Shown one piece after another: positions 10,711-38,882 of a DNA stretch of 64,000 bases. Source of the DNA: Myxococcota bacterium. Its GTDB lineage: Bacteria > Myxococcota_A > UBA9160 > UBA6930. The notes below the pieces were generated by a model. It was not told the DNA's origin. It was given only the letters and a program-made list of their open reading frames with translations, and did no database searches. Positions within the stretch are counted from its first letter, which is position 1; the number at the start of each line of letters is the position of its first letter. The stretch lies in the NCBI GenBank assembly GCA_965223415.1, contig OZ245002.1, positions 448,001 to 512,000 on the forward strand, given 5' to 3'. Position numbers and translations under genes: made by a program.

Positions 10711-10819
10711 CTCGGTGCGCTCGGGTTCGCTCATCTGGCGAGGAGCCCGGGGCATCCCATCCCCATCATCCCCGCCCCACCCCCTATCCCGGGTGAGGGC
10801 CTCGGAGGAACGGACAGGC

Positions 10820-11107
10820 ATGAAGATCCGACCGCTCCAGGACAGGATCCTGGTCAAGCGCGTGGACGAGGAAGAGACGACGGCCGGGGGCATCATCATC
10901 CCCGATACCGCCAAGGAGAAGCCCCAGGAGGGCGTGGTGATCGCCGCCGGCGGCGGCAAGGTCCGCGAGGACGGCACCGTCCAGCCCCTGGACGTCAAGA
11001 AGGGCGACAAGGTGCTGTTCAGCAAGTACGCGGGCACCGAATGCACCCTCGATGGCGAAGAGCACCTCATCATCCGCGAGGACGACATCCTCGGGGTCCT
11101 GGAGTAG
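10820..11107 (+). CDS. groES: Co-chaperonin GroES
   Basis: [13 protein letters not shown]...[13 protein letters not shown]. Confidence 0.98.
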
Positions 11108-12760
<1,653 letters not shown>

Positions 12761-12907: not shown

Positions 12908-14266
12908 GTGGACGAGCGTCAGGCCCAGGAGCGACTCGCGAGGCGGCTGCGGGGGATGGGACTCGAGGTCGAGATCCTTCCCGGCGGGCGCTGTGTGCGC
13001 GGGGTGCTCCCGCTGGGCCCGGAGCCGTTGCTGACGCCGTCTGGGCCCTTCGCCGCCGCGGCGGTGGAGTTCGCCAGCGTCGGCCCCCAGCGCATCAAAT
13101 GCCTGCGGCCGGCCGCCCTCTTCCAGCTACCGATCGTCTCGATCGCGGGCTGCGGCGACGCGATCGAGCTCGAGGGACGGGTGCGGGCGGCCTGGATCGA
13201 TCACATGGCCCACCTGCGGACCGCCCGCGACGTGCTCGACGCCGGCGGGGTCGAGCACGAAGGCGAGTGGCACGATGCGGGGCTGGCCGTCGCCATCCAC
13301 CAGGATCCCCCCGATGCCCGGGCCCGTTGGGTGGCGAAGCGCACCCTCTCCCTGCCCTCTCCCGGACCGCTCGCGGGCCGCGCCCTGGCGGCGCCCGCCG
13401 AGCGGGTGGTCGAGCTACCTGCAGAGGCGCGCTCCGCATCCGAGATCGAGCTCGCGGTGGGCGCCCGCCTCGAAGCCCTGGGGCGTCAGCTCGACGAGCG
13501 CGACGAACGCCGGCGGCGGCGACACGCCCACGAGGGCGAGCCGGGTGTGCCCCAGCCCCTCCACCCGGTCTTTCGCGGCCGGGACCGCGACGTGCTGCTG
13601 GTCGGCCCCCAGCTCTCCCAGGAGTTCGAGCTCCAGGGCGCCCTGCGCCAGCGCGGCTTCCGTTCCACCCTGGCCCGGGGCGCCGACGCGGCGCGGGCTG
13701 CCTTCGACGAGAGCTCCTTCGAGGTGGTCGTGGTGGATGCAGTGCTCGATCGCGCCGAGGGCCTCGAGCTCATCCCGACCCTCGCCGACGTGCCGGGCAT
13801 CGGCGAGCTGCCGGTCGTGCTGATCGACGACCGGGCCCGCGAGAGCCGCCGGGAGGCCGCCCGCGCGTTGGGCGCCGCCGGCTACCTGGTCCGGCCCCTC
13901 GACGCCCAACGGCTGGCGGCGGGCCTGGAGAGGCTCGTCACCGAGCGCCCCCAGCGGCGCTTCGACCGCTTCTCCCACAAGCTGGCGGTGGCCTGGGAGG
14001 ACGGCTGCGACGGCTTCACCACGGTGGTCGGTCGCCGCGGCCTGTTCGTCTCCACGCCGCGCCCGAGCCCACCGGGCGCTCTCGAGAAGGTCGAGCTGGC
14101 GCTTCCGGAGACGGGCGAGCGGGTCTCGATGGACGTCGAGACGCTCTACCGGGTCGAGGCCCGAGGTGGACGCGACGCAGGCATCGGGGTGCGCATCCGC
14201 GCCTTCCCCGACGACCACGAGACACGCTGGATCGACTACCTGACGGCGCTGGAACGGCCCGGCTGA
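12908..14266 (+). CDS. Unknown N-terminal domain + receiver domain + PilZ-like domain
   Basis: REC-like FEVVVVDAVL...LGAAGYLVRP; C-terminal QRRFDRF (RxxxR) and GLFV...GIGVRI PilZ-like barrel. Confidence 0.7.
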   Translation: MDERQAQERLARRLRGMGLEVEILPGGRCVRGVLPLGPEPLLTPSGPFAAAAVEFASVGPQRIKCLRPAALFQLPIVSIAGCGDAIELEGRVRAAWIDHMAHLRTARDVLDAGGVEHEGEWHDAGLAVAIHQDPPDARARWVAKRTLSLPSPGPLAGRALAAPAERVVELPAEARSASEIELAVGARLEALGRQLDERDERRRRRHAHEGEPGVPQPLHPVFRGRDRDVLLVGPQLSQEFELQGALRQRGFRSTLARGADAARAAFDESSFEVVVVDAVLDRAEGLELIPTLADVPGIGELPVVLIDDRARESRREAARALGAAGYLVRPLDAQRLAAGLERLVTERPQRRFDRFSHKLAVAWEDGCDGFTTVVGRRGLFVSTPRPSPPGALEKVELALPETGERVSMDVETLYRVEARGGRDAGIGVRIRAFPDDHETRWIDYLTALERPG

Positions 14267-14288
14267 GCCGAAGCCCAGCCGGTCGGCC

Positions 14289-14501
14289 TCAGCCCAGCTT
14301 GGCGCGGGCCTTGTCGATGTCGCCGTCCATGATCGTCTTGCGCTTGTCGGCGATGGCCGAGGCGTGGGCTTCGCGCGCGAGCCGCGCGAGGTAGTCCTCG
14401 GTCGCATCGACGGCACGCTCGATCGCCGAGCCGGAAACCCGGAGCCCCTCTCCGTGCTTGGCGATGAGTCGCTTCACGACCGCGTTGGGCAGGTCAGCCA
14501 T
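14289..14501 (-). CDS. Histone-fold protein, archaeal HMf-like
   Basis: 70 aa: DLPNAVVKRLI (alpha1), RVS (L1), long alpha2, RKTIMDGDI (L2, RKTxxxxD), intact alpha3; SD AGGAGGG 4 nt upstream of ATG. Confidence 0.88.
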   Translation of the reverse strand: MADLPNAVVKRLIAKHGEGLRVSGSAIERAVDATEDYLARLAREAHASAIADKRKTIMDGDIDKARAKLG

Positions 14502-14533
14502 GCGTCCCTCCTGGCCTGGTGTGCGTTGCCAAG

Positions 14534-14563
14534 AAACTACGAGCGGCCGGGGAGGAATGCCAA
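14534..14563 (-). promoter_or_regulatory. Candidate promoter of the histone gene
   Basis: TTGGCA-18 nt-TAGTTT on the minus strand. Confidence 0.5.
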
Positions 14564-14588: not shown

Positions 14589-15809
14589 TCATGCGTTCCG
14601 AGCGGCATCCTCGGCGGCGCGCACGATCTCGGCGAGGGGCCGATCGGCCCGGCGCGCCGCGCGCTTGCAGTCGTCGTACTCGGCAGAGACCTGGGTGCTC
14701 CCGTCCGGCGCCGTCACGTACTTCACCCGGATGGAGCCGAAGGGCGTGTCCACGGAGCGCACCTCCCGGGGCAGGACCAGGCGATCGGCCTCCACGCTGC
14801 GCACCCCCAGGCTCCCGGTCACCGCGAGCAGGCGGCTCGCCAGCGGGACGCGGCGGGCGGGCGTGGTGAGCACCCGCAGCAGGAAGCCGGGCCGGTTCTT
14901 CTTCGTCTGCACGTACTGCAGGGAGACGTCCAGGGCGCCGGCGGCGAGGAGCTCGTCCATCACGTGATCGAAGTGCTCGGGCACGAGGTCGTCGAGGTTG
15001 GCTTCGAGGCACACCACCCGGTCCGCTCCGCCGCCGCTCTCGCGTCCGACGACGACGCGCAGCACGTTGGGCAGTGGCCCTTTGCGGTCGTTGCCCGCAC
15101 CGTGACCGATCGACTCGACGGTCATGGCGGGCAGGCCCGTGAACTCGTCCGCCAGCGTGCGCAGGATCGCGGCGCCGGTGGGCGTCACCGTCTCCCACCG
15201 AACGTGGGCCGGCACCGTCGGCACGCCCCGCAGCAGCTCGAAGGTCGCGGGGGCCGGGAGCGGCAGGCGGCCGTGCTCGGTCTCGACGGTGCCCTCGCCC
15301 AGGGCGACGGGCCCGACCGTAACCCGCTCGATCGCCATGGCGTGGACGGCGATCGCCGCGCCGGCGATGTCCACGATGGCGTCCACCGCGCCGACCTCGT
15401 GGAAGTGGACCTTCTCGACGGGAATGCCGTGCACCCGTGCCTCGGCCTCCGCCAAGGCCGCGAAGATCGCCTGGGCGCGGTCGCGCACGGCGGCCTCGAG
15501 CTTGGCCGCATCGAGGAGCCGGCGGATCGCGGCGTAGTGCCGGTGGTGGTGGTGACCGTGGCCGCCCTTCGCCCGGGGCTTCGGCACCTTCACGTCGACG
15601 TAGGGCGCCGCCAGGGCGCCGCGCTTCACCTTCTTCACGACCAGTCGGTGCGCGACGCCGAGCCCGGCGAGCCCTTCGCCGAGCTTCCGGCGCGGCAGCC
15701 CGGCATCGAGCATCGCGCCGAGGAACATGTTGCCGGCGGTCCCCGAGAAGGGGTCGAGATGGAGGACGCGCCGGCCCGCCACCGGTGCACCGGTCTTGCG
15801 CCGCGCCAC
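14589..15809 (-). CDS. larC: Nickel pincer cofactor nickel insertase LarC
   Basis: DPFSGTAGNMFLGA, His-rich GHGHHHHRH, VHFHEVGAVDAIVD, TPTGAAIL, EANLDD, AEYDDC. Confidence 0.92.
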   Translation of the reverse strand: MARRKTGAPVAGRRVLHLDPFSGTAGNMFLGAMLDAGLPRRKLGEGLAGLGVAHRLVVKKVKRGALAAPYVDVKVPKPRAKGGHGHHHHRHYAAIRRLLDAAKLEAAVRDRAQAIFAALAEAEARVHGIPVEKVHFHEVGAVDAIVDIAGAAIAVHAMAIERVTVGPVALGEGTVETEHGRLPLPAPATFELLRGVPTVPAHVRWETVTPTGAAILRTLADEFTGLPAMTVESIGHGAGNDRKGPLPNVLRVVVGRESGGGADRVVCLEANLDDLVPEHFDHVMDELLAAGALDVSLQYVQTKKNRPGFLLRVLTTPARRVPLASRLLAVTGSLGVRSVEADRLVLPREVRSVDTPFGSIRVKYVTAPDGSTQVSAEYDDCKRAARRADRPLAEIVRAAEDAARNA

Positions 15810-15811
15810 GC

Positions 15812-16567
15812 TCAGAGCCGATTGATCAGGGTCGCCACCGTGGCGGCGCCGAAGCCGTTGTCGATGTTCACCACGGTCACGTTCGATGCGCAGCTGTTGA
15901 GCATCGCGAGCAGCGCGGCGATCCCACCGAAGGAGGCGCCATAGCCGACGCTCGTCGGCACGGCGATCACCGGCTTGTCGACCAGGCCACCGACCACCGA
16001 GGCGAGAGCGCCCTCCATGCCGGCGACGGCGACGACCACCCGTGCGCTGCGCAGAAGCCGGCTCTCGGCCAGGAGGCGGTGCAGCCCGGCCACGCCGACG
16101 TCGGCGAGGAGCTCCACCTTGTTGCCGAAGCGCCGGGCCACGCTGGCCGCCTCCCGCGCCACGGGCAGGTCAGAGGTGCCCGCACAGACCACGGCGATCG
16201 TGCCCTTGCCCTGGATCTCCACCTCGGCCGGGCCGTACCAGAGGAGCCGGGCGTCCGGGTCGTACTCGCCGCCGGGCAGGAGGGCGAGCACCTCCTCCGC
16301 CGCGTCGGGCTCGATGCGGGTGGCGAGCGCCGATTGGCCGGCCTGGGTGAGAGTGCGGGCGATCTCGGCGACCTCCGCGGCCCGCTTGCCCTGGCCGAAG
16401 ATCACCTCGGGCAGCCCCTGCCGCAGGGCCCGGTGCACGTCGACCCGCCCGGCCCCGGACGGCGTCTCGATGATCGGCGGGTGGGCGAGCGCCTCGAGGG
16501 CCTCGTCCGTGTCCAGCTCTCCGCGCCGAACCGCCTCGAGCAGGGCGCGCGCGCGTTCTCGCTCCAT
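15812..16567 (-). CDS. larB: Nickel pincer cofactor biosynthesis protein LarB
   Basis: PEVIFGQGK, AGTSDLPVA, DVGVAGLHR, PTSVGYG, VNIDNGFGAA. Confidence 0.93.
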   Translation of the reverse strand: MERERARALLEAVRRGELDTDEALEALAHPPIIETPSGAGRVDVHRALRQGLPEVIFGQGKRAAEVAEIARTLTQAGQSALATRIEPDAAEEVLALLPGGEYDPDARLLWYGPAEVEIQGKGTIAVVCAGTSDLPVAREAASVARRFGNKVELLADVGVAGLHRLLAESRLLRSARVVVAVAGMEGALASVVGGLVDKPVIAVPTSVGYGASFGGIAALLAMLNSCASNVTVVNIDNGFGAATVATLINRL

Positions 16568-16588
16568 CCAAGCAACGTTAGCCGAGAT

Positions 16589-16661
16589 GTGAGACAAGGG
16601 GACGTTCCTTTCTGTCTCACGGCTTTGCCGTGAGACAGAAAGGAACGTCCCCTTGTCTCAC
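16589..16661. repeat. REPIN-like palindrome, family A, copy 1
   Basis: Perfect 35-nt arms GTGAGACAAGGGGACGTTCCTTTCTGTCTCACGGC with loop TTT. Confidence 0.92.
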
Positions 16662-17240
16662 TCAGTCGACGAGGCGGTCTGGCACGTAGACGAGCAGGCC
16701 GTGGATCTCGCCGTCTCGGTCGGCGATCTCGGTCTCGATGCGCAGGGCGGCCGGGGCGGCGTGGGGTGTGAGGCGCTCGGCCAGGACGGCGCCGGCGTCG
16801 CGGAGGACCAGGTCGGGCACCGAAGGCAGCACCACCGCGCCGGTGGTCTCGCCGATGGACGAGGCGACGTGGGAGACGAGGATGTTGCCCAGCTCGCGGA
16901 GCGCGGATTCGGCCATCTCCCGGTCGACGGGGCGCCCGCCGGTCAGCATGTCGACCAGCCGGTCGCGGACGTCGCCGGGGAAGATCAGGGCGAGGTAGCC
17001 ACCGGGCCCGCCGTGGAGCTCGAAGAAGACGCCCATGCGATCGGGGCCCTCGGCGTCCGCCACGATGAAGGGCTCGGCGAGACGCTGGGCAGTGAGGACC
17101 CGCACCGTCGGGACCCGCATGGAGCAGGGGCGTCCGGTCATCGCAGCGAGCGCGTTGGCGGCGTGGCCGGCGCCGATGCTGGTGAGCTCGCGGATGCGAT
17201 CCACCTGGGTCTCGTCGAGCTGCTGGGAGAGGTCGGTCAT
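16662..17240 (-). CDS. cheC: CheC-family phosphatase (DifG-like)
   Basis: ELTSIGAGHAANAL and ELGNIL motifs; last gene of the che cluster. Confidence 0.85.
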   Translation of the reverse strand: MTDLSQQLDETQVDRIRELTSIGAGHAANALAAMTGRPCSMRVPTVRVLTAQRLAEPFIVADAEGPDRMGVFFELHGGPGGYLALIFPGDVRDRLVDMLTGGRPVDREMAESALRELGNILVSHVASSIGETTGAVVLPSVPDLVLRDAGAVLAERLTPHAAPAALRIETEIADRDGEIHGLLVYVPDRLVD

Positions 17241-18909
17241 GCCAGCTGGTTCACGTCGAGGAGGAACACGGGACAGCCGTCGCCGAGGACCGTCAGGCCG
17301 GCGAGCAGACGCGCGCTGGCCAGGAGCCGCGGCACGGGCTTGACGTAGATCTCCTGCTGGCCGGCCAGGTGCCCGACGCGCAGGCCGACGCGTTCGCCCC
17401 GGACCTCGGCCAGCACGAGGGGGCTCGTGCCGCCGTCCTCCTCATGGGTCGGGAAGCCGATGCGGCGGGCGAGGTCGAGCACCAGCACCGGCTCGTCCTC
17501 CACCAGGCAGAACTGCTCGCTGCCGGCCACCTCGATGGCGTCGGCGGCGACCTCGACCACGCGCTCGACCTTCGCGATCGGCACCGCCACGGTCTGGCCG
17601 CCAGCGCCGACCAGCAGCACGCGCTGGACGGCGGCGGTAATCGGCACGACGAGGGCGGTCGTCGTGCCCAAGCCGGGGCGGGAGCGCAGCTCGACCCGTC
17701 CGCCGAGGGCCTCGATGGTCGCCTTCACCGCGTCCATGCCGACGCCGCGCCCGGACACCGTCGACACCTCGGCCGCGGTGCTGACCCCGGGCCGGAACAC
17801 GAGCGAGGCGATCTCGTCCGGCGGGAGATCGTCGGCCAGGTCCTCGTGGAGCACGCCGGCGTCGATCGCGCGGCGCTTCACCGAAGCGAGATCGATGCCG
17901 CGGCCGTCGTCCTCCACCGAGATCAGCACCTGGTCCTTCTCCCGCCGGGCCTCGACCACGACCCGGCCCGAGGGCGGCTTGCCCACCTCCCGGCGCGCCT
18001 CCGGCTCCTCGAGCCCGTGGTCGACGGCGTTGCGGACCAGGTGGACCAGGGGATCGCCGAGCCGATCGAGAATCGCCCGGTCCAGCTCGAGCTCGGCACC
18101 CCGGAGCTCGACGTCGACTTCCTTGCCGGTGGACCGCGCGATCTCCCGGGCCATGCGCGGCAGCGCATCCATCACGCGCAGGAGCGGAGCCGTGCGAAGC
18201 GAGAGGGCGCGGCGCTGGAGATCGCCGACCACCCGCTCCATGCGATCGAAGCCGGCGCCGAGGGTGGGGGCCATCGCCGAGTCGCCCGTACCCTCCGCCG
18301 TCGAACGCAGATGACTCGAGCTCAGGATCACCTCGCCCACAGAGGCGAGGAAGCGGTCCAGGGTCTCCGTGCGTACCCGGACCGAAGGCGGCGGCGCGCT
18401 CGAGATGACCGGGGTGGGTGCACCCGCCGCAGCTCCCGCCCCGGCCTCGGGCGCTACGACGTCGCCGCTTTTTTTGGGTCCGGCTCCGGCGGCAGCTCCG
18501 ATGCGGGAGCGATCTCCGATTCCTGCGCCGGGTCGACCGCCGCGCCGAGCCTGTCCAGGAGCTCCGGGTCGGGCGGAGAGGGCTCGCCCTGGGCGCGGAT
18601 CGCCCCGACCATCGCCTCGAGGCCCTCGAGACCCGCGAAGAGCAGCGCCGTGCCGGCCTCGCCCGCCGGCACGACACCGGCGGCGCGGAAGCGATCCATC
18701 ACGTCCTCGAGCTTGTGGGCGAGCTCGGTGATGGCGTCGTAGCCGAGGGATCCCGCCATGCCCTTGATGGAGTGGGCCATGCGGAACACCTCGTCGATCG
18801 CTTCGCCGTCGCCGGGCGCCTTCTCGAGGACGAGGAGCGCCCTGCTCATCTCGGCGAGATGATCCGTCGCCTCTTCGAGGAAGAGCGCCCGGTACTTGGC
18901 CAGGTCCAA
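17237..18909 (-). CDS. cheA: CheA histidine kinase (DifE-like), split by a -1 frame change at an A7 run (18469-18475)
   Basis: Hpt domain (FRMAHSIKGMA) in 18454..18909; dimerisation, HATPase (HLVRNAVDHG, SGRGVGMD) and CheW domains in the -1 frame. Confidence 0.9.
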
Positions 18910-18948
18910 GGCTCAGCTCCCTTTGCCGTCCGTCTTGGGGCCCAAGGC

Positions 18949-19317
18949 CTAGCCTTCCTTCTCGAGCACCTTGGCGAGCGTCGTGAGCACGGCGTCGGGC
19001 TTGAAGGGCTTCACGATGAAGTCCTTGGCGCCGGCCTGGATCGCCTCCATGACCAAAGTCTCCTGCCCCAGCGCACTGCACATCACCACCGTGGCGCCGG
19101 GATCCTCTGCCTTGATGGCCTTCACCGCGTCGATGCCCGAGCGCTTGGGCATGACGATGTCCATCATGACCAGGTCGGGACGCAGCTCCAGGAACTTCTC
19201 CACGACTTCGACGCCGTCGGACGCTTCGCCCACCACCTCATAGCCTTCGGGCTCGATGATGTCGCGAATCATCTGCCGCATGAAGGACGCGTCGTCGGCA
19301 ACCAGAACCCTCTTCAT
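18949..19317 (-). CDS. cheY: CheY-like response regulator (DifD-like)
   Basis: MKRVLVADD...MMDIVMP...FIVKPF. Confidence 0.93.
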   Translation of the reverse strand: MKRVLVADDASFMRQMIRDIIEPEGYEVVGEASDGVEVVEKFLELRPDLVMMDIVMPKRSGIDAVKAIKAEDPGATVVMCSALGQETLVMEAIQAGAKDFIVKPFKPDAVLTTLAKVLEKEG

Positions 19318-19814
19318 GTCGTTCCCCCGTGGGTTGGCTCGCTGGCGCCATTCGCCACCGAGTTCGAGATCACTTCCGCCGCCCGCTCGAGCAGGCGTTT
19401 CGGATCCAGCACGCTGACCATCCGCCCGTCGAGAGGGCGGCGCTCCGCCACCGGGTCCGCCTCCAGGGCGTGAGCCGGCGGCCCGTCGATCAGCCCCAGG
19501 ATGCGGTCCACCGGCACGCCGTAGCGGTCCGGGTCGTCCGGATCCTTGGCCAGGATCAGGAGCGGCCGTTCGATCGGGTAGCGCGAGCGATGCGCACCGA
19601 AGAGCGCGTCGCCGAAGACGATGGGCACGGCGTCGCCGTGGTGGTTCACGACGCCGCCCACCCGATGGTGCACCATCGGCACCGAGGCGAGCTGGTCGAG
19701 CTCGGCCACCTCGGCGACGTCGGCGATGGGCAGGGCGTAGAGGGCATCGCACAGCTCGAAGGCGAGCAGGCGCTCGCTGAGCTCCATGGGAGGGATCTGG
19801 GGGGGCGCGCTCAC
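19314..19814 (-). CDS. cheW: CheW-like coupling protein (DifC-like)
   Basis: [36 protein letters not shown]; lies between the MCP and cheY. Confidence 0.78.
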
Positions 19815-21112
19815 GAGGCGTCCGGGTCCGAGCCAGTGCGGAAGCGCCCGACCATTCCGGTGAGATCGCCGGACAGCTCCGCGAGGGAAGCCGAGGCTTC
19901 GGTCATCTCGCCGACGGCCTCCTGCTGGCGATGGGCCAGCTCGGCCACCTCCTCCACCGCGGACGCGTTCGCCAGGGAGACCTTCGCCACCTCGTCCATC
20001 GACTCGACCATGGTCTCGGCGTCGCGGGCCTGGTCGTCGGCCTGCTGGAAGATCTCCTCGGCGCGGCCGGCGGCCTCCCCCACGGCGGAGCGGATCTGCT
20101 CCAGGGAGGCGGCGATCGTGTTCACGTCCTCGCGGCCCTCGGAGATCATCTGGCCGGATTCGCGCATCTCGTCGGCCACGCTCTGGGTATCGGTCTCGAT
20201 CTCGCCGACGAGCTTCGAGATCTCCTCCGCGCTGCGGGCGGCGCTCTCGGCGAGCTTGCGGATCTCGTCGGCGACCACCGCGAAGCCGCGCCCGGCCTCA
20301 CCGGCCCGCGCCGCCTCGATCGAGGCGTTCAGGGAGAGGAGGTTGGTGCGCGACGCCACGCTCGTGATGATCTCGGTGATCTGGTGCACGTGCCGGGTCT
20401 TGGCTTCGAGCTGGAAGACGTTGCCCCCCGAGTGCTCCACGCGCTCGAACACGCTGCGCATCTTCTCGATCGCGAGCCGGGACACGTCGACGCCGGCGTT
20501 GGCCTTCTGGTTCGCCTCGGCAGCGAAGCCGAAGGCCTCGCGCGCGCGTGAGGCGTTCACCTCGATGGCCGACGCGATGTGATGGATCAGGCGCGTCACG
20601 TCGCCGAGCAGCTTCTGCTGCTGGCTGGCGCCCTTGGAGATCTCGGACAGCGTGGAGGTCATGTCTTCGGCCGAGGTGTGAACGCCGTTCACGGCGCCGC
20701 GCAGGGTGTCGACGCCGCGATGCACCTGCTCGGCGTTGTGCTGGATGCCAGCCATCACCTCGCCGAGAGCGCGCACGGATTGCGCCATGTTGCGGGCGAG
20801 CTCGCTGCTCTCGTCCGGGAAACGGCCGGCGGGAACCTGGGGGAACTCGCGCAGATCCCCGGCGACGATGCGCTCGGACAGCTCCAGCACCGGACGGTAG
20901 CCGCCGGCGATGCGCGCCGAGAGGCGCCACGCCAGCACCCCGCCCGCTCCCAACGCGAGGAACGGACGCGCCCACGGCGCCATGGGAATGCCGCCCTGCT
21001 GGACCAGCCAGGGGATGAGCAGCACGACCCCCGCGACCAGCATCGAGCCGATCGCGACCTTGTGCGAGAGGGAGAGCCTCACACCCCCGGGTATCGGCCT
21101 CCCCGCGCGCAT
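19811..21112 (-). CDS. Methyl-accepting chemotaxis protein (DifA-like, almost no periplasmic domain)
   Basis: Two closely spaced TMs; [35 protein letters not shown]; exact start uncertain. Confidence 0.92.
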
Positions 21113-22167: not shown

Positions 22168-22240
22168 GCGAGACAAAGGGACGTTCCTTTCTGTCTCACG
22201 GCGGAGCCGTGAGACAGAAAGGAACGTCCCCTTGTCTCAC
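22168..22240. repeat. REPIN-like palindrome, family A, copy 2
   Basis: Same 73-nt palindrome with 2 substitutions in the left arm, loop GGA; contains the lon stop codon. Confidence 0.92.
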
Positions 22241-24660
22241 TGTCGGCGCGGCTTGGCGGTGGCGACGCTGCTTCGGCTGGTGCGGGTGCTGCCCCGGGGC
22301 ACGCTGCGCTTGGGGCGGGAGAGCGTTCCGTCGAGGGCCGCCTCGAGCACGTCGTCCATGTGGCTGGCGCCGATGAAGCGGATCCGCTTCGCCAGCTCGC
22401 CGGGAACCTCCCTCACGTCCGCCAGGTTGCGCTCCGGGAGGATCACGGTGGTGATGCCCGCTCGAAGCGCCGCCAGCGCCTTCTCCCGGATGCCGCCGAC
22501 GGGCAGGACCTTGCCGAGGAGGGTCACCTCCCCGGTCATGGCCACGTCCGGACGCACCGGCACGCCGCTCGCGAGGGACACGATCGCGGTCGCCATGGTC
22601 ACGCCCGCCGAGGGTCCGTCCTTGGGGATCGCGCCGGCGGGGACGTGGACGTGCACCTCCCTGCGCTCCAGACAGGAGGCCTCGAGGCCCAGCTCGGTCA
22701 CCTTCGAGCGCGCCCAGGTGAGGGCCGCGTGTCCCGACTCCTTCATCACCTCTCCGAGCTGGCCGGTCAGCACGAGCCCGCGGCCGCGAGTCACCGCGGC
22801 TTCGACCCGCAGCACGTCGCCGCCGGCCTCGGTCCAGGCGAGGCCGTTCGTCACGCCGATCTCGCCTTCGTTGTGCGGCTCGTCCGGAGCGTGGCGCGGC
22901 GGCCCGAGGAGCTTCGGCAGCGAACGCTTGTCGATGCGCATCGGCCGCTCGTCGCCTTCCGCCGCCCGACGCGCCGCCTTGCGGCACACCCCGGCGATCT
23001 GGCGCTCGAGAGCGCGCACACCGGCCTCGTAGGTGTAGTCGGTGACGATCCGCGAGAGGGCCGAGTCGGACCAGTGGATGCGATCCGCGGGCAGGCCCGC
23101 GTCTTCCACCTGCCGCGGCACCAGATAGGAGCGCGCGATCTCGAGCTTCTCTTCGGGCGTGTAGCCGGACACCCGGATCACCTCCATGCGATCGCGCAGG
23201 GGACCGGGAATCGACTCGAGCAGGTTCGCCGTCGCCACGAAGAAGACGCCGGAGAGATCGAAGGGCACGTTCAGGTAGTGGTCGCTGAACTTGCTGTTCT
23301 GCTCCGGATCGAGCACCTCGAGCAGGGAGGAAGAGGGATCCCCGCGGTAGTCGTTACCGAGCTTGTCGATCTCGTCGAGCATGAAGACCGGGTTGTTGGT
23401 CCCGGCCTGCTTCAGCCCCTGGATGATGCGCCCGGGCAGCGCGCCCACGTAGGTGCGGCGGTGGCCACGGATCTCCGCCTCGTCGCGCACGCCGCCCAGG
23501 GAGATGCGCACGAACTCGCGCCCCATGGCTCGCGCGATCGATCGGCCGAGGGAGGTCTTGCCGACACCCGGCGGCCCCACGAAGCAGAGGATCGAGCCCC
23601 GCGAATCGGCCCGCAGCTTACGCACACCGAGGAACTCGAGGATCCGGTCCTTGATTCCCTTCAGGTGCGCGTGGTCGCAATCCAGGATCTCGCGGGCGTG
23701 GGAGAGATCGAGGCGATCCGGCGAGGTGCGGGACCAGGGCAGGTCCGTCATCCACTCCAGGTAGCTGCGCACGACCTGGGCCTCGGGCCCGTCCGGATGC
23801 ATGCGTTCGAAGCGGCGAAGCTGCTTCATCGCCTCGTCGAGAGGCTCCGGCGGGAGGGCCGCTTCCTCGATCTTGAGCCGGTACTCGGCCGCCTCCTCCA
23901 TGCGCGGGTCCACCTCGCCGAGCTCGGCCTGGATCGCCCGCAGCTGCTCGCGCAGGTAGTGCTCGCGCTGGCCGCGGCTGATCTCCTCCTTGGCCTGGCT
24001 CTGGATCTCGGCCTGCATGGTCGTGACGTCGAGCTCCCGGCGGAGCAGGCGGTCGACCTTGCGCAGCCGCGAGATCGGATCGACGACCTCCAGCACCTCC
24101 TGGGCCTCGCCCAAGCGGAGCTTGAGGTTCGAGGCGACGAGGTCCGCCAGGCGGCCGGGCTCGTAGACGTTCGAGGTGATCGAGAGCACCTCCGGCGGGA
24201 GGTTCTTCAGGGGCAGCAGCTCCTCGACCCGGGTGCGCACGGTGCGCATCAGCGCCTCGGCCTCCACGCACCAGTCGCCCTCGCCTTCTTCCGGCAGCGC
24301 GGACACGGCGGCCCAGGTCGCGGGCTCGCTGTCCACGAAGGAATCGATGCGCGCCTTGGTGAGCCCCTGGACCAGCGCCTTCACGCGGCCGTCGGGCAGG
24401 CGCAGGATGCGCATGACCATCGCGACGGTGCCCACGCGATAGAGATCGTCCGCGTCCGGGTCCTCCACCTCCGCGTTGCGCTGGGCGGCGAGGAGTACGA
24501 GACGGTCGCCCGCGAGCGCGTCCTCCACCGCGGCGATGCTGCGCTCGCGCGAGACGAAGAGCGGCAGCACCATGTACGGGAAAACCACGAACTCGCGGAG
24601 CGGCAGCACCGGGAGCTCGTCGGGAATCCCGAAGTCGAAGGAGGAGGTGTCGTTCGCCAT
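22237..24660 (-). CDS. lon: ATP-dependent protease La
   Basis: LPVLPLR N-domain, [17 protein letters not shown] (Ser), GGIREK (Lys). Confidence 0.97.
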
Positions 24661-24692: not shown

Positions 24693-26870
24693 TTAAGCCG
24701 CCGGCTCCCTCGAAGACGCAGCGGGCGGCTCGCCTTTCGCCGGCTCCACCTCACGCATGCGCAAGTAGGGCGCAACACCGTTCTCGTCGACGGAGATGAT
24801 CTCCCCGCGGTCGACCCCGAGGAGCTGCGGACGCCGCACCGCCTGCCCCTCGGGCCCCATCGACAGCACGCCGGAAGCGCCCACCACCCGCTTGGCGCGA
24901 AGGACGCCGTGGAGGACCGCGTCCCGCCCGAGAGATCCACGGGCGACCTGCAGCGAGACGAGATGAGCGGCATCGAAGCCCTGGGCGGCGAGGAAGGTGG
25001 GCTGCGCGTCGAAGGTGCCCTGGTAGCGGCGCGTGAACTCGGCCACGAAAGGATGGCGACTCCCGGCGAAGAACGGCGCAGTGAAGACCGCACCGTTCAC
25101 GTGGGTGCCGCCGATCGTCACCAGGTCGGGGTGGTTCCAGCCCGCGGTCCCGAGGAGCCGGACCCCACGCACCTCGTGGAACGCCAGGTGGGGCGCCAGG
25201 AGCGCCACGTTCTCATGGGCGTCGGGAATGAAGAGCGCGTCGAAGTCGACGAAGGGCGGCAGCGGAGCCCCGCCGGAGGAGGTGAGGGTACGCGCCTTCT
25301 TGCGCAGCTCCGCGGCCCGTTCCGGGGGCAGCCGCTTGGCCCGCTTCTCGAGCCGGGCCCGCTCGACCAGGGCTCGCTCCTGGCTCCGGGTCAAGAACTC
25401 GAAGCCGATCAGGCGACGGATGGGATCGCGGAAGTCGGTGGCGTCCGAGGCGTAGCGGGCGACGCCCACCACCTGACCGCCCCGCTCCTCGATCGCGTCC
25501 CAGAAGCTGGCCCGCAGGGCCCGGCCGTAGGCATCGTCGGGATAGAGGATGGCGAAGCGTCGCAGACCCAGGTCGCCGGCGGCGAACTCCGCCAGCACCT
25601 CCGCCTCCAGGCGCGGCGTGGACCCCATCCGCAGCACGTAGCGGCCGAGCTCGGCCACCGACTCCCGGCGGGTCAGGGTGAGCAACGGCAGGCCGTGATC
25701 CTCGGCGACCGGTGCGGCGGCCTCGGCGGCGGAGGCCAGGAGCGGCCCGATGCAGGCGATCACCTGGGGATCGGCAGCCAGCTCCGCCACCGCGGCGGCG
25801 GCACGCACGGGATCGCCCCCGCTGTCCCGCACCTCCAGCCGTAGCGCCGAGGGCGCGCTGCGGCTCGCGTCGAAGAGGCCGGCGGCGAGGAGCACGCCCT
25901 GGAGCGTCTCCTGACCGAAGGCCGCGTAGGGCCCGGAGAGCGGCAGGACGACGCCGAGGGTCGCGGCCTCGGCGGGAAGCGCCCAGCTGCCGGCCCCGTC
26001 GGCATCCCTCCAGCCGGGGAGATCGAGGCGACCCCCACCCGGCCGGGAGAGGCGTTCCTTCAGGTGGGCCAGGCGACCCGCTTCGGAGGGGCTCAGCGGC
26101 AGCCGCTCGGCCCGTGCGAGGGCCGCGAGGGCGGCGGGCCCATCGCCCTCGCCGAGGGCGCGCTCGGCCCGGTGGAGCCAGAGCCGCCCGGCGGGCAGCC
26201 GCCGCCCGAGGCCCGCCGCGATGCGCTCGAGGGCCGGACCGTCGAGCCCGGCCATCACCTCGTCCATGCGCGACTCGACCGGGGCCATGTCCCCGGGATC
26301 ATCCTGGTCGGCGCGCACCCGGCCGAGCCAGCGGAGCTCCTCGCCGGCATCGCCCTGGGCATGCGCCACGGCAGCCCGCAGGCGGTGGGCGCTGCGCCGC
26401 CGCTCGGCGTCCAGCAAGGCGATGCGGATGAGCTCGGCGTTGCCGGCGGCGGCCTCCACTTCACCGGCGTCGAGCTGGAGCCCCGCCAGCTCGAGCCGCA
26501 CCGCATCGCTCTTGTCGCCGCGAGGGTGGCGCGCCAGGGCCCACTCCAGGTGCCGCCGGGCCTCGGGCGCCTGACCCGCGGCGAGGGCGAGCTCGGCCAG
26601 GCGCAGGGCGGCGTCGTCGGCGTACAGGCTCGTCGGATGCGCCTGGAGGAAGGAGGCGAGGGCCGCGCGACCGGCCGGCGGGTCGACGGCGAGCAGACTC
26701 AGCGCGTCCGTGTAGGCGGCCCGCGCGAGTCCGCCGCCCGGCAGCCCCGACTGGCAGCCGGCGAAGAGCAGCGCAGCGAACAGGACGGCACGACCGAGGC
26801 CGGTTCCGGAAGGGGCACGACCGAGGCCGGTTCCGGAAGGGGCACGACCGAGGCCGGCGGCGCGCCTCAA
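24693..26870 (-). CDS. LpoA/LppC-like lipoprotein (TPR region + periplasmic-binding-protein domain)
   Basis: TTG start overlapping the dnaJ stop (inferred), lipobox LFAGC, TPR-like helices, [18 protein letters not shown]1-type domain. Confidence 0.72.
26787..26857. repeat. 27-bp tandem repeat, 2.6 copies
   Basis: Unit GGCACGACCGAGGCCGGTTCCGGAAGG; encodes GLGRAPSGT repeats in the signal peptide. Confidence 0.9.
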
Positions 26871-27982
26871 TCGAAGAGGTCCCGCAGCTTGTCGAGGAAG
26901 CCCTTCGTCACCGGCGAGGCCTCGGTGCCCGTCTCCTCGGCGAACTGCTCGAGCAGCTCGCGCTGGCGTCCGGTGAGCTTCGTCGGCACCTCGACGAACA
27001 CCCGCACGAGCTGGTCGCCGCGGCCGGCGCCGTTCAGGGAAGGCACGCCCTTGCCGCGCAGCCGCAGGATCTTCCCCGGCTGGGTGCCCTCGGGAATTCG
27101 CATCTTCACCTTGCCCTCGAGGGTGGGAACCTCCACCTCGGTGCCGAGGGCGGCGTGGACGAACGGAACGGGGACCTCGCAGTGGAGATCCGGACCGTCG
27201 CGCTCGAAGAAGGGATGGGACTTCAGGTGCATCACCACGTACAGGTCGCCGGGCGGGCCGCCGGAAATACCCGCCTCCCCCTCCCCGCCCACGCGCAGGC
27301 GCATGCCGTCCTCGATGCCCGCGGGCACGCGCACCTTGATCGACTTCTGGCCTTCCGTCCGCCCGCTGCCCCGGCACCCGCCGCACGGGTCCCGCACCAC
27401 GAAGCCCTCGCCCGCGCAGGCCTCGCAGGGACGGCTGATACGGAAGAGGCCCTGCTGGAAGATCGCCTGCCCCGTTCCCTGGCAGCGCCCGCAGCGCTCG
27501 GGCTGGGAGCCCTCGCGGGCGCCGGAGCCGCCGCAGGTGCCACAGGGCATCATCTTCGGCAGGTCGAGGGAGATCTCCTTGCCCTCGAGCACGTCGGCCA
27601 GGTCGATCTCCAGGTTGTAGCGGAGGTCGGCGCCGCGCTGACCGCGGGTGCGACCGCCGCGGCCGCCCATGCGGCCGCCGAAGAGATCCCCGAACAGGTC
27701 GCTGAACAGGTCGCCGAAGTCCTGGAAGCCGCCGGGAAAGCCGCCGGGACCGCCGGCGCCGACGCCCTGGTGCCCGAACTGGTCGTACTGCCCCCGCTTC
27801 TCCGCATCCGAGAGCACCGCGTAGGCCTCGGACGCCTCCTTGAAGCGCTCCTCCGCCTCGGCGTCGTCCGGATTGCGGTCCGGATGGTTCTCGAGCGCCA
27901 GCTTGCGGTACGCCGCCTTCAGATCGTCGTCCGAGGCGGTGCGGGCCACCCCCAGCACCTCGTAGTAGTCACGCTTGGCCAT
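26867..27982 (-). CDS. dnaJ: Chaperone DnaJ
   Basis: [14 protein letters not shown], four CxxCxGxG repeats. Confidence 0.98.
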
Positions 27983-27994
27983 GCGAGGGGGGAA

Positions 27995-28022
27995 AGATGG
28001 GGCCTGGGGCGGGAAGGTCAAG
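27995..28022 (-). promoter_or_regulatory. Candidate sigma32-type promoter of dnaJ
   Basis: CTTGACC-13 nt-CCCCATCT on the minus strand. Confidence 0.55.
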
Positions 28023-28371
28023 CGGGGCCCCTCGGGGAGGGGGCCGCTTCGCTTCTGCGAGCGGGATCGCGGGGCGGCCGGGGGGCCCGGCGCTCCATGG
28101 CTCGCTGCGGCCTTCGAACGCGCGCGGACGGCGGGTGCGCGACCCGGGCCGCCCTGGGCGCGTACTCGAAGGCCTTGCTGCGCTTGACTTCCGCGCCGGG
28201 CCCACCGGCCGCCCCGCGATCCGTTCGGGGTGGATTCGGGTCCCGGCAACGTGCAGGGGGTGGGGAAGGAAAGGGGGGGAGGTGCGCGAACGTGGGTCCT
28301 GCCTCGATGCGCCGAGACGGCTCCACCCATTCATCAGAAAGGAATCGGCGTCCATCCGTGCGGGGGACGCG

Positions 28372-28542
28372 CGCCGGGTGCGGGTGCAGGCCGGGCGGAA
28401 ATCAAGCGCAGGCAGGCACAATGATCGTCGTGCGCACAGGTTGCCGCCGGCGAAGCCGGAAGCGGCGACCCCGCCATGCGACACCGTACGCGGCCGGCCC
28501 CCCGGCCGAGCCATTCCGCCCGGCCTGCACCCGCACCCGGCG
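28372..28542. repeat. Perfect 29-bp inverted repeat flanking 113 bp
   Basis: CGCCGGGTGCGGGTGCAGGCCGGGCGGAA (28372-28400) and its exact reverse complement (28514-28542). Confidence 0.85.
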
Positions 28543-28587
28543 ACTCCGCATCCCGCGAAAGGAGCGAAGCGGCCCCAAGCCGTATCC

Positions 28588-30417
<1,830 letters not shown>

Positions 30418-30459
30418 CGAACGCCGGCCCTCCGTGGCAGGCCCGCGTCCGGCGCCCGC

Positions 30460-31173
30460 CTAGCCTTCGGTCTCGTCCTCGGGCTTTTCGGCCATCCCGC
30501 CCTCGGGCTTTCGCGAAACCACGACCCGGGCCGGCCGGAGCAGGCGGTCCCGGAGCTGGTAGCCGCCCTGGAGCACCTGCATCACCGTGCCCGACGACGC
30601 CTCGTCGCTCTCGACCTGGGCCATCGCCTCGTGGACGTTGGGGTCGAACGGCTGGCCAAGGGCCTCGACCGGCGTGACCGCGTGGTGAGCCAGCACCCCG
30701 AGGAGCTCCCGCCGCACCAGCTCCACGCCCTGCAACATGCTCTCGAAGTCCCCGGATTCGCTCTGCTTTGCGTGATCTATGGCCCGATCGAGGTTGTCCA
30801 CCGTCGCCAGCAGATCCCGGGCCAGGCCCTCGTGGCCGTAGCTGTGGGCGTCCTGCCGCTCCTTCAGGGCGCGCTTGCGGTGGTTGTCGAAGTCGGCCTG
30901 CAGGCGCAGGGCGCGCTCCTTGAGGGAGTCGATCTCCTGCTTCGCCTGCTCGAGCTCCTCGAGCACCCGCTCGTGGGTCTCCCGGGGCACGGCCACGACG
31001 GCGCCGCCGCCCTTGGGCTTCTTGCGGGCCTCCTCCCGGGCCTCCACCGCCTCGGCCGCCTCGCGGAGGGCCTCCTCCAGCTCGGCGCTGGGCGCGATGG
31101 TGCCCTCGCTGGGCTCCTCGGCGAGGGCCTCCCAGCCCTCGGTCCGGTCCGAATCGTTGCCGCCCTGGTTCAT
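30460..31173 (-). CDS. grpE: Nucleotide exchange factor GrpE
   Basis: [38 protein letters not shown] overlaps the hrcA stop. Confidence 0.95.
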
Positions 31174-38806: not shown

Positions 38807-38882
38807 GGCCCGGTAGCTCAGTTGGTAGAGCACCGCACTGAAAATGCGGGTGTCGCCAGTTCGATTCTGGCCTGGGCCACCA
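38807..38882 (+). tRNA. tRNA-Phe(GAA)
   Basis: 76-nt cloverleaf GGCCCGG...CTGGGCCACCA, D arm AGCTCAGTTGGTAGAGC, anticodon loop CTGAAAA, TTCGA, encoded CCA. Confidence 0.97.

What the first reader, a model, noticed from the sequence alone, without database searches (positions are those of the whole stretch)
14289..14563. Stand-alone archaeal-type histone gene in a bacterial chromosome
Seen: a 70-aa ORF, MADLPNAVVKRLIAKHGEGLRVSGSAIERAVDATEDYLARLAREAHASAIADKRKTIMDGDIDKARAKLG, with a strong SD and its own TTGGCA/TAGTTT promoter, among ordinary bacterial genes and with host-like codon bias. Known: this matches the HMfA/HMfB pattern (ELP..P..R, RVS in loop 1, RKTI...D in loop 2) and keeps a full alpha3 helix, unlike the alpha3-truncated Bdellovibrio-type histone. 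By-eye alignment to HMfB puts Ser, Ala and Lys at the tetramerisation positions L46, H49 and L62, while the DNA-contact residues and the R52-D59 pair are retained. Inference: a DNA-binding histone with a non-canonical oligomer interface, possibly a chromatin protein of a poorly studied lineage.
Basis: partly seen in the sequence, partly recalled or inferred. Interest (0 to 1): 0.85.

Follow-up and report, generated by a model that had tools for sequence, protein, structure and literature searches.

The report
Full-length histone in uncultured Myxococcota bacteria
A small, real and strongly conserved bacterial gene encodes a histone with the full archaeal-style fold but without the residues archaeal histones use to stack into nucleosome-like fibres, a type that the current literature describes as absent from bacteria.

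Summary
Window 14289-14501 (-) is an intact 70-aa ORF. It scores above Pfam's cut-offs for Histone and CBFD_NFYB_HMF and folds with pLDDT 93 into helices 6-16, 24-51 and 59-69. So alpha2 and alpha3 are full length, unlike the alpha3-truncated bacterial histones described so far.

It lies in a bacterial core chromosome (MreB, sigma-70, LexA, GroESL, DnaK). Orthologues sit at the same place in 80 of 80 fetched MAG loci, mostly titled Myxococcota or Deltaproteobacteria. They show dN/dS of about 0.19, a Shine-Dalgarno site in 80 of 81 and a promoter-like site in 58 of 81.

DNA-contact and fold-clamp residues are invariant in 225 of 225 relatives. The tetramer positions L46/H49/L62 of HMfB are Ser/Ala/variable, with no His or Leu.

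Best reading: an expressed nucleoid protein that binds DNA as a dimer and does not form a canonical hypernucleosome.

The oligomer model could not be run, because complex prediction never accepted the job.

One member is listed, without comment, in Hocher 2023 Table S1. I rate it a new variant of a known kind, interest 0.6.

The parts
14289..14501 (-). Histone-fold gene, 70 aa (P0001), 7.5 kDa, pI 9.2. Predicted helices: alpha1 residues 6-16, alpha2 24-51, alpha3 59-69.
14506..14512 (-). Shine-Dalgarno sequence AGGAGGG, 4 nt before the ATG.
   Evidence: An SD-like motif lies within 20 nt of the start in 80 of 81 orthologues.
14534..14539 (-). Putative -10 hexamer TAGTTT. The lineage consensus is TAGGAT/TACGAT.
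   Evidence: Not found by the consensus scan.
14558..14563 (-). Putative -35 hexamer TTGGCA (TTGACA in most orthologues), 18-nt spacer.
   Evidence: 58 of 81 orthologues carry the site, and 46 of 81 have exact TTGACA. The spacer is 18 nt in 50 of 58.
14260..14281 (.). G+C-rich hairpin with a 9-bp stem and UUCG loop, just after the stop codon, between the convergent histone and response-regulator genes. There is no U run. A role as terminator or stabiliser is inferred only.
   Evidence: ViennaRNA fold. One search finds no canonical intrinsic terminator.

Best explanation
This is a real, vertically inherited and probably well-expressed histone of an uncultured Myxococcota lineage.

Each chain has the complete archaeal/eukaryotic-length histone fold. 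As for all histone folds, the working unit should be a handshake homodimer; this is inferred from the fold, not modelled here.

The dimer keeps the whole DNA-binding face: the alpha1 Arg (R11), the 'sprocket' Arg (R21), the L2 motif K53-R54-K55-T56, and the R54-D61 clamp. It should therefore grip about 30 bp of DNA through minor-groove contacts and bend it.

It lacks three of the four residues that HMfB-type histones need for the four-helix-bundle dimer-dimer contact, and all three HMfB stacking pairs. The most likely behaviour is therefore a dimeric DNA-bending or DNA-coating nucleoid-associated protein, not a hypernucleosome former.

Shown here: the gene, the fold, the helix lengths, residue conservation, synteny, purifying selection and conserved expression signals. 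Inferred: dimerisation, DNA binding, abundance and the absence of higher oligomers.
For: Fold:
- Pfam Histone and CBFD_NFYB_HMF score above their cut-offs.
- AF2 gives pLDDT 93.3 with helices 6-16, 24-51 and 59-69.
- Foldseek gives TM 0.8-0.9 to H3, Cse4 and NF-YB.
- A PDB profile search gives H3 at 1.2e-5 and archaeal HPhA at 5e-5 over residues 1-65.
- After its own clusters, the nearest Atlas clusters are 69-aa archaeal histones.

Residues:
- R11, R21, R54, K55, T56, D61 and P5 are invariant in 225 of 225 stored relatives.
- G17 (= HMfB G16) is present in 209 of 225.
- Position 51 (= H49) is never His, and position 64 (= L62) is never Leu.
- Position 64 and the rest of the outer alpha3 face (60, 63, 67) have the highest entropy in the protein.
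- Henneman 2018 requires L46/H49/D59/L62, G16 and stacking pairs for hypernucleosomes.
- Hocher 2023 shows that Bd0055, with S45/A48/I61 at these positions, cannot wrap DNA until they are mutated to the archaeal residues.

Gene status:
- 81 of 81 ORFs are intact, with RKT at the same index.
- Median dN/dS is 0.19 over 545 of 600 sampled pairs.
- Median identity to the window protein is 75%. That is higher than LarC in 72 of 72 loci and CheA in 53 of 54, and lower than GroEL in 30 of 32.
- Position is fixed between larC (or the AIRS gene) and the RR/GroEL genes.
- Histone and GroEL pairwise identities correlate (Spearman 0.47, 378 pairs).
- There is no match in plasmids or phages.

Expression signals: SD-like motif in 80 of 81; promoter-like site in 58 of 81 against 0.15 expected.
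Against: - No expression, abundance or binding data exist for this lineage.
- Net charge is modest (13 K+R against 11 D+E, pI 9.2).
- Ser48 (89%) and Ala51 (85%) are themselves conserved. This could mean a constrained, tightly packed alternative interface rather than a lost one.
- The oligomer state was not modelled, because complex prediction never accepted the job.
- The window's own promoter fails the tool's consensus scan.
- For the one well-studied dimeric bacterial histone, the binding mode (bending or coating) is itself disputed in the papers read.
Confidence: 0.6

Rival explanations
1. It wraps DNA after all. Dimers join through a non-canonical interface, for example close packing of the Ala/Ser-rich end of alpha2 (A45, A47, S48, A49, A51), into tetramers or a fibre. 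This would be a bacterial analogue of the hypernucleosome.
For: Full-length alpha2 and alpha3 give the same dimer geometry as wrapping histones. G17 (= the stacking-permissive G16) is conserved in 209 of 225 relatives. S48 and A51 are conserved at 89% and 85%, and D61 (= D59) is invariant.
Against: Only 1 of the 4 HMfB interface residues is kept, and 0 of the 3 HMfB stacking pairs. Position 64 and the outer alpha3 face are the most variable in the family. Archaeal histones and HMfB mutants without H49 fail to form stable tetramers, according to Hocher 2023 (passages read).
Confidence: 0.22
2. It is a gene-specific regulator of the NF-Y/HAP3 kind, as some public annotations of relatives say, and not a general chromatin protein.
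For: NCBI names for relatives include 'NFYB/HAP3 family transcription factor subunit'. NF-YB chains are among the best structural matches, with TM 0.85-0.90.
Against: NF-YB works only with an NF-YC partner. The window holds a single histone-fold ORF, and no second one lies beside it in the 80 loci, whose neighbours are all accounted for. The name is an automatic Pfam-derived label. The sprocket Arg and the RKT motif are those of DNA-wrapping or DNA-bending histones.
Confidence: 0.1
3. It is a histone fold that no longer binds DNA, as proposed for DUF1931 proteins, and serves as a protein-protein module.
For: There is a weak sub-threshold DUF1931 hit (15.6 bits against a cut-off of 21.8). Overall charge is modest.
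Against: All DNA-contact residues are invariant in 225 of 225 relatives. It is a singlet, not a pseudodimer. pI is 9.2.
Confidence: 0.05

Closest known systems
Archaeal nucleosomal histones HMfA/HMfB and HPhA (PDB 1a7w, 1hta, 1ku5, 5t5k)
   Same: Length is the same (69-70 aa). alpha2 and the three-turn alpha3 are full length. The LP-A N-terminus, R10, G16, the R19-V-S loop 1, the R52-K53-T54 loop 2 and the R52-D59 clamp are all kept.
   Different: L46, H49 and L62 are replaced by Ser, Ala and a variable residue. The HMfB stacking pairs K30-E61, E34-R65 and R48-D14 become D32/D63, D36/A67 and I50/K15. There is one extra residue in loop 1. The score is below the NCBIfam archaea_histone cut-off (38.6 against 50). 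The host is a bacterium.
Bacterial dimer histone HBb/Bd0055 of Bdellovibrio (alpha3-truncated class)
   Same: Bacterial, a stand-alone singlet, with its own strong expression signals. Ser and Ala sit at the L46 and H49 positions: Bd0055 has S45/A48 (Hocher text) and this protein has S48/A51. Read by eye from Table S1 rows, the end of alpha2 and L2 share the pattern SA-x-ADKRKT-x-x-D-x-D with alpha3-type bacterial singlets.
   Different: alpha2 is about 4 residues longer: 31 against 27 residues between the L1 Ser and the L2 Arg, by eye. alpha3 has 11 residues instead of one turn. The sprocket Arg, which Hocher reports as not conserved in bacterial singlets, is invariant here. No computed alignment to HBb could be made, because no stored HBb sequence was available.
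Face-to-face histones HLp (Leptospira) and HTkC
   Same: A histone singlet. FtF histones are reported for Myxococcota too (Schwab 2024, Hu 2025; passages read).
   Different: FtF is defined by truncated alpha2 and alpha3 and by tetramer residues R48/N52 in the HMM numbering where R54/T56/D61 are the RxTxxxxD motif. This protein has S48 and D52 and full-length helices.
Archaeal histone variants lacking H49
   Same: Full-length fold with a disabled four-helix-bundle interface. Such variants fail to form stable tetramers, as cited in Hocher 2023 and predicted in Henneman 2018 Table 2.
   Different: In archaea these usually coexist with a canonical paralogue. Here no canonical partner is seen in the window. 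The whole genome could not be checked.
71-aa sister family in other bacterial MAGs (P0288 and relatives, alignment A4)
   Same: hhalign probability is 99.7% over 71 ungapped columns. The predicted helices are identical (6-16, 24-51, 59-70; pLDDT 93.7). R11, R21, R54-K55-T56 and D61 are the same.
   Different: Identity is about 46%. Position 48 is His, Tyr or Asn, and alpha1 is more acidic. The few named members are titled Verrucomicrobiota, Acidobacteria or 'bacterium'. A Lentisphaerae member in Hocher Table S1 has pI 6.1.

Membership tests
Histone-fold superfamily (Pfam PF00125 / PF00808) | Profile score above the curated cut-off. | tested here: met
   41.8 against 26.4 bits, and 34.2 against 21.4 bits.
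Histone-fold superfamily (Pfam PF00125 / PF00808) | Helix-loop-helix-loop-helix fold with a long central helix. | tested here: met
   AF2 pLDDT 93.3 with H6-16, H24-51 and H59-69. Foldseek TM 0.8-0.9 to H3, Cse4 and NF-YB.
Archaeal nucleosomal (HMf-type, hypernucleosome-forming) histones | Full-length alpha2 and a roughly 10-residue alpha3. | tested here: met
   28-residue alpha2 and 11-residue alpha3. The alignment to HMfB via P0177 is ungapped except for one residue in L1.
Archaeal nucleosomal (HMf-type, hypernucleosome-forming) histones | DNA-anchoring R10 and R19, the L2 K53/T54, and the R52-D59 clamp. | tested here: met
   R11, R21, K55, T56, R54 and D61 are each present in 225 of 225 relatives.
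Archaeal nucleosomal (HMf-type, hypernucleosome-forming) histones | Dimer-dimer interface residues L46, H49, D59 and L62 (Henneman 2018). | tested here: not met
   The residues are S48, A51, D61 and K64. Across 225 relatives, position 48 is Leu in 5, position 51 is His in 0 and position 64 is Leu in 0.
Archaeal nucleosomal (HMf-type, hypernucleosome-forming) histones | Small residue at G16, and stacking pairs between dimers i and i+2/i+3. | tested here: inconclusive
   G17 is present in 209 of 225 relatives (met). The three HMfB pairs are not conserved (D32/D63, D36/A67, I50/K15), but these pairs also vary among archaea.
Archaeal nucleosomal (HMf-type, hypernucleosome-forming) histones | NCBIfam archaea_histone NF043032 cut-off. 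| tested here: not met
   38.6 bits against a cut-off of 50.
Archaeal nucleosomal (HMf-type, hypernucleosome-forming) histones | Tetramer or hypernucleosome assembly on DNA. | not tested
   The complex-prediction job (4 copies, alignment A2) was never accepted. The first attempt was and the last was. No bench data exist.
alpha3-truncated histones (Schwab 2024: FtF, bacterial dimer, ZZ, phage, Rab) | alpha3 of only 3-4 residues and alpha2 shorter by 4-5 residues. | tested here: not met
   alpha3 has 11 residues and alpha2 has 28. 14 residues follow RKT, against 7 in an alpha3-type row of Hocher Table S1 (by eye).
Face-to-face histones | Tetramer residues R48 and N52 (FtF HMM numbering). | tested here: not met
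   S48 and D52 in P0001. Position 48 is Ser in 201 of 225 relatives.
Bacterial dimer histones (HBb cluster) | Sequence clustering with HBb (CLANS). | not testable with these tools
Only a by-eye similarity of the alpha2-end/L2 motif was seen.
DUF1931 pseudodimeric histones | PF09123 match and two folds in one chain. | tested here: not met
   15.6 bits against a cut-off of 21.8. It is a 70-aa singlet.
NF-YB/HAP3 transcription factor subunit (public label of relatives) | A partner NF-YC-type histone-fold subunit. | tested here: not met
   Only one histone-fold ORF is found in the six-frame HMM search of the 64-kb window. The rest of the genome was not available.

The most novel reading that the evidence does not exclude
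This family, together with its 71-aa sister family in other bacterial phyla, is a third major kind of bacterial histone: a full-length, archaeal-geometry histone fixed in a whole uncultured Myxococcota lineage as a main chromatin protein.

Its mosaic make-up points to an evolutionary intermediate. The N-terminal half, sprocket Arg and helix lengths are archaeal. The Ser/Ala tetramer positions and the ADKRKT-type L2 are bacterial. That would link archaeal nucleosomal histones to the alpha3-truncated bacterial histones. It may also assemble on DNA through an interface not yet seen in any histone.
Probability: 0.2. Interest if true: 0.85.

Novelty: new variant of a known kind. Interest (0 to 1): 0.6.

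Why it matters
The papers read here state that nucleosomal-type histones occur only in archaea. They describe bacterial histones as alpha3-truncated or DUF1931 (Schwab 2024 sections 6, 7 and 14; Hu 2025 passages). Hocher 2023 calls a short alpha2 'diagnostic of bacterial singlet histones' and says the sprocket Arg is not conserved in bacteria (passages).

This family breaks each of those generalisations. It is conserved, in the same chromosomal place, in 80 of 80 species-level genomes examined.

It offers a natural test of whether full helix length or the H49-type interface decides between bending and wrapping. It also gives a new data point on how histones entered or persisted in bacteria. 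The protein has 70 residues and should be easy to make, so the question is directly testable in vitro even though the hosts are uncultured.

Tried and rejected
The answer was always 'queue full' or 'no usable answer'. No model and no verdict were obtained.

I therefore could not get UniProt accessions, and could not look the family up in Schwab's per-accession category file (supplement 3, seen). Whether they filed it as 'Undefined' is unknown. Their large supplementary PDF (MOESM1) was not readable.

3. A 33-residue C-terminal query against the PDB gave no hit.

4. A tree of 106 rows was too poorly resolved to place the family: 73 columns, 16 of 99 inner branches starred, and long-branch warnings.

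5. Alva & Lupas 2019 is not held. I recall it only as a survey of bacterial histones.

6. The paper search returned only unrelated microbiome papers. Searches found no paper describing a full-length bacterial histone family.

7. A spurious ORF was rejected on the evidence.

8. Recent horizontal acquisition or a mobile element was rejected. Codon bias is host-like (GC3 0.90; CDS GC 68.5% against 72.0% for the window), synteny is fixed, and there are no plasmid or phage matches.

9. A functional operon with larBC was rejected. The gene has its own conserved promoter. larBC and the che genes are absent upstream in L007, L009 and L056. An alpha/beta-hydrolase gene is inserted in L018.

10. The 'longer' length search for fused forms was not made. 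Searches did show a few multi-domain relatives.

Full report
OBSERVATION

AGGAGGG lies 4 nt upstream of the ATG. TTGGCA, 18 nt and TAGTTT lie at 14563-14534.

The window has 72% G+C, so long spurious ORFs are everywhere. This ORF is not one of them:
- It scores 41.8 bits on Pfam Histone (cut-off 26.4) and 34.2 bits on CBFD_NFYB_HMF (cut-off 21.4).
- It scores 38.6 bits on NCBIfam archaea_histone, which is below that model's cut-off of 50.
- It has 403 homologues at E<=1e-3 among 404 scored candidates, nearly all 70-74 aa.

FOLD

AlphaFold2 on a 39-sequence alignment gives mean pLDDT 93.3, with helices at residues 6-16, 24-51 and 59-69. Foldseek against the PDB returns H3, Cse4 and NF-YB chains at query TM 0.8-0.9. 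By sequence, the best solved relatives are eukaryotic H3 (E 1.2e-5 with the family profile) and the archaeal histone HPhA (5e-5, residues 1-65 against 4-67). In the ESM Atlas, the nearest clusters after its own two Myxococcota-labelled clusters are 69-aa archaeal histones.

The protein therefore has a 28-residue alpha2 and an 11-residue, three-turn alpha3. That is the architecture of archaeal and eukaryotic histones.

SETTING

The window is ordinary bacterial core chromosome. In order it carries:
- PBP2, MreC, MreB, a SurA-like protein and a sigma-70 factor;
- FolE, LexA and GroES-GroEL;
- a 452-aa protein with a receiver domain, convergent with the histone;
- the histone;
- LarC and LarB;
- a chemotaxis cluster (CheC/X, CheA, a receiver protein, MCP);
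- an AIRS-domain protein and Lon;
- DnaJ, DnaK and HrcA, and more.

A six-frame search with the family HMM finds no second histone fold in the 64 kb. The gene's GC3 is 0.90, against 0.86-0.98 for its neighbours. CDS G+C is 68.5%, against 72.0% for the window.

RELATIVES AND INHERITANCE

A scan of one genome per GTDB species found 96 loci encoding a relative, and 80 were kept. All are MAGs. By title:
- 30 are Myxococcota, Myxococcales or Myxococcaceae;
- 30 are Deltaproteobacteria or 'delta proteobacterium';
- 11 are 'uncultured Spirochaetales';
- 9 carry other labels.

All share the same gene order, so the odd titles are probably unreliable bin labels.

larC lies upstream on the same strand in 77 of 80 loci, and larB in 72. 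GroEL, LexA and FolE follow downstream wherever the contig reaches. In L007, L009 and L056 the che-larBC block is missing and the histone follows the AIRS gene. In L018 an alpha/beta-hydrolase gene sits between larC and the histone. The histone is therefore a fixed landmark and not a member of the lar operon.

Evidence for selection and vertical descent:
- All 81 copies (80 loci plus the window) are intact at 70-75 aa, with RKT at the same index.
- Median dN/dS is 0.19 over 545 usable pairs out of 600 sampled, with dS near saturation.
- Identity to the window protein has a median of 75% (range 63-94).
- That identity is higher than LarC in 72 of 72 loci, CheA in 53 of 54, the receiver protein in 47 of 47, LarB in 55 of 68 and LexA in 29 of 35.
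- It is about equal to FolE (higher in 14 of 29) and lower than GroEL in 30 of 32.
- Histone and GroEL pairwise identities correlate (Spearman 0.47, 378 pairs).
- There is no tblastn match in the plasmid or phage collections.

This is old, vertical inheritance under strong constraint.

EXPRESSION SIGNALS

An SD-like motif lies within 20 nt of the start in 80 of 81 copies.

A site of the form TTGAC[AG]/TTGGCA, N16-19, TAnnnT lies within 140 nt upstream in 58 of 81 copies, and TTGACA is exact in 46. Shuffles give 0.15 expected. Random 140-nt windows of the same loci give 18 of 1600. The spacer is 18 nt in 50 of 58. The -10 is mostly TAGGAT, TACGAT, TACGCT or TAGCAT. The median distance from the -10 to the ATG is 30 nt.

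The window's own site fails the tool's stricter consensus scan, which also finds no intrinsic terminator. A 9-bp UUCG hairpin without a U run follows the stop codon. A near-consensus -35 kept across a lineage of about 70% G+C points to a dedicated and probably strong promoter. Strength is an inference.

RESIDUE-LEVEL COMPARISON

P0177 is a stored relative with a nucleosomal-type sequence. It aligns without gaps to HMfB (1a7w residues 2-65 = P0177 62-125). It aligns to P0001 at 46% identity with one gap in loop 1. Chaining the two alignments gives these P0001 = HMfB equivalences:
- DNA contacts, G16 and clamp: R11=R10, G17=G16, R21=R19, R54=R52, K55=K53, T56=T54, D61=D59.
- Tetramer positions: S48=L46, A51=H49, K64=L62.
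- Stacking positions: D32=K30, D63=E61, D36=E34, A67=R65, I50=R48, K15=D14.

Among 225 stored family members (at least 60% identity, of 343 stored proteins):
- P5, R11, R21, R54, K55, T56 and D61 are invariant.
- G17 is kept in 209.
- Position 48 is Ser in 201, Ala in 18 and Leu in 5.
- Position 51 is Ala in 191 and never His.
- Position 64 is Lys in 106, Ala in 35 and Thr in 28, with Ser, Arg and Gln also common. It is never Leu.

Per-column entropy shows that positions 60, 63, 64 and 67, the outer face of alpha3, are among the most variable in the protein.

Henneman et al. 2018 (passages read) set three criteria for hypernucleosome formation: the L46/H49/D59/L62 interface, G16, and stacking pairs. 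This protein meets only G16 and D59.

MECHANISM

I infer a handshake homodimer, as for every histone fold. It would present two L1-L2 sites and an alpha1-alpha1 site, all intact. From the chained alignment, the DNA face carries more basic residues than HMfB: K10, K15 and K53 where HMfB has G9, D14 and G51.

Without the four-helix-bundle residues, the dimers should not polymerise in the HMfB manner. Hocher et al. 2023 (passages read) make the same link experimentally. Bd0055 carries S45/A48/I61 at these positions and cannot bring DNA ends together, and it gains that ability when mutated to the archaeal residues A48H/S45F/I61L. They also cite HMfB mutants and natural H49-less archaeal histones that fail to form stable tetramers.

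The most likely behaviour is therefore a dimeric bender or coater of DNA acting as a nucleoid-associated protein.

The main rival is a non-canonical assembly. It is kept alive by the conservation of small residues at positions 48 and 51 and by the intact G16 equivalent. I could not model oligomers, because complex prediction never accepted the job (first attempt, last).

RELATION TO WHAT IS KNOWN

Schwab et al. 2024 (sections 6, 7 and 14 and other passages read) split prokaryotic histones into nucleosomal ones ('exclusively in archaea'), alpha3-truncated ones and minor groups. The alpha3-truncated ones are defined by an alpha3 of 3-4 residues and an alpha2 that is 4-5 residues shorter. Bacterial members of that class are FtF and 'bacterial dimers'. 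Hu et al. 2025 repeat this (passages). Hocher et al. 2023 call the short alpha2 'diagnostic of bacterial singlet histones' and note that the sprocket Arg and H49 are not conserved in them.

The present family fails the defining features of the alpha3 class and of FtF: its helices are full length, and it has S48/D52 in place of R48/N52. It also fails the interface test for nucleosomal histones. It sits between the two.

By eye, in rows of Hocher's Table S1, alpha3-type singlets end 7 residues after RKT and have 27 residues between the L1 Ser and the L2 Arg. The figures for this family are 14 and 31. Yet both share an SA-x-ADKRKT-x-x-D-x-D pattern at the end of alpha2 and in L2, where HMfB has LARHAGRKTIKAED. 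The protein therefore looks mosaic: archaeal in its N-terminal half and its helix lengths, bacterial at the tetramer positions and L2. This is a reading by eye, not a computed alignment.

The family is not unrecorded:
- Hocher's Table S1 lists one member, Deltaproteobacteria bacterium UBA6930 DKAI01000097.1-5 (70 aa, pI 9.3). This is my locus L007.
- The same table lists a 65-aa alpha3-type histone from another contig of the same genome.
- It also lists a 76-aa Lentisphaerae protein of the sister family.
- None of these is discussed in the text passages I read.
- Public annotations call relatives 'histone-like protein', 'NFYB/HAP3 family transcription factor subunit' or 'histone H3/H4'.

Full-text searches found no paper describing a full-length bacterial histone family. 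Schwab's main supplementary PDF could not be read. I could not map accessions to their category file, so they may hold it as 'Undefined'.

WIDER FAMILY

Against 1.84 billion 50%-identity representatives, only 59 proteins reach E<=1e-3 and 16 reach 1e-10. The group is therefore compact.

A profile of the distant hits finds 292 proteins. They include a 71-aa family whose few named members are titled Verrucomicrobiota, Acidobacteria, 'bacterium' and one 'archaeon'. That family aligns to this one over 71 ungapped columns (hhalign 99.7%). It is predicted to have the same three full-length helices (pLDDT 93.7). At least two bacterial families thus share this architecture.

A tree of 106 rows was too weakly supported to root or order them.

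VERDICT

It is a new variant of a known kind: a bacterial histone with archaeal helix lengths and DNA contacts, bacterial-type tetramer positions, lineage-wide conservation and its own promoter. DNA binding, abundance and oligomeric state remain inferences.

Noticed in passing
L007 (record DKAI01000097.1) and another contig of the same genome, DKAI01000171.1, which is not held: Hocher 2023 Table S1 lists two histones for Deltaproteobacteria bacterium UBA6930: the 70-aa full-length type and a 65-aa alpha3-truncated type. The lineage may carry two histone kinds side by side, as many archaea do. The window's genome could not be checked beyond the 64 kb.
   Followed up: partly
Proteins P0288, P0283, P0295 and others (alignment A4): A 71-aa sister family has the same full-length predicted fold. 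It is found in MAGs titled Verrucomicrobiota, Acidobacteria and 'bacterium'. A Lentisphaerae member in Hocher Table S1 has pI 6.1, so this family is less basic.
   Followed up: partly
Loci L009, L025, L026, L030, L071, L075, L051, L080 and others: 20 of the 80 loci carry titles outside Myxococcota/Deltaproteobacteria: 11 are 'uncultured Spirochaetales', and others are Planctomycetota, Opitutales or Geobacter. They nevertheless share the che-larBC-histone-GroEL-LexA-FolE order. The record labels look unreliable.
   Followed up: partly
window 14589-16597 (-): larC (nickel-insertion protein) and larB (AIR-carboxylase-like) lie directly upstream of the histone. No larA or larE was recognised among the neighbours scanned.
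   Followed up: no
window 16662-21112 (-): A chemotaxis-type cluster (CheC/CheX-like phosphatase, CheA, a receiver-domain protein, MCP) is conserved with the larBC block in most related loci. It is absent in L007, L009 and L056.
   Followed up: no
window 10715-12760 (+), 22237-24660 (-), 26867-32246 (-): There is an unusual concentration of heat-shock genes within 22 kb around the histone: GroES-GroEL, Lon, DnaJ, DnaK and HrcA.
   Followed up: no
L018 4929-5936 (+): In part of the lineage an alpha/beta-hydrolase gene (Hydrolase_4, E 2.5e-16) is inserted between larC and the histone. About 900-bp gaps at the same place are seen in many other loci.
   Followed up: partly
Proteins P0165 (500 aa), P0140, P0162, P0163, P0166, P0171 (436-843 aa) and P0157 (155 aa): The representative search also hit longer proteins. 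One has a C-terminal histone domain 45% identical to this one, several have two or three matched stretches, and one is a natural doublet. The dedicated 'longer' search for fused forms was not run.
   Followed up: no
window 12908-14266 (+): The convergent neighbour is a 452-aa protein whose only Pfam match is a weak receiver domain at residues 241-338 (36.7 bits). It is the least conserved gene of the neighbourhood, with median identity 40%.
   Followed up: no
window 38807-38882 (+): A single tRNA-Phe (GAA) is the only Rfam or ARAGORN hit in the window.
   Followed up: yes
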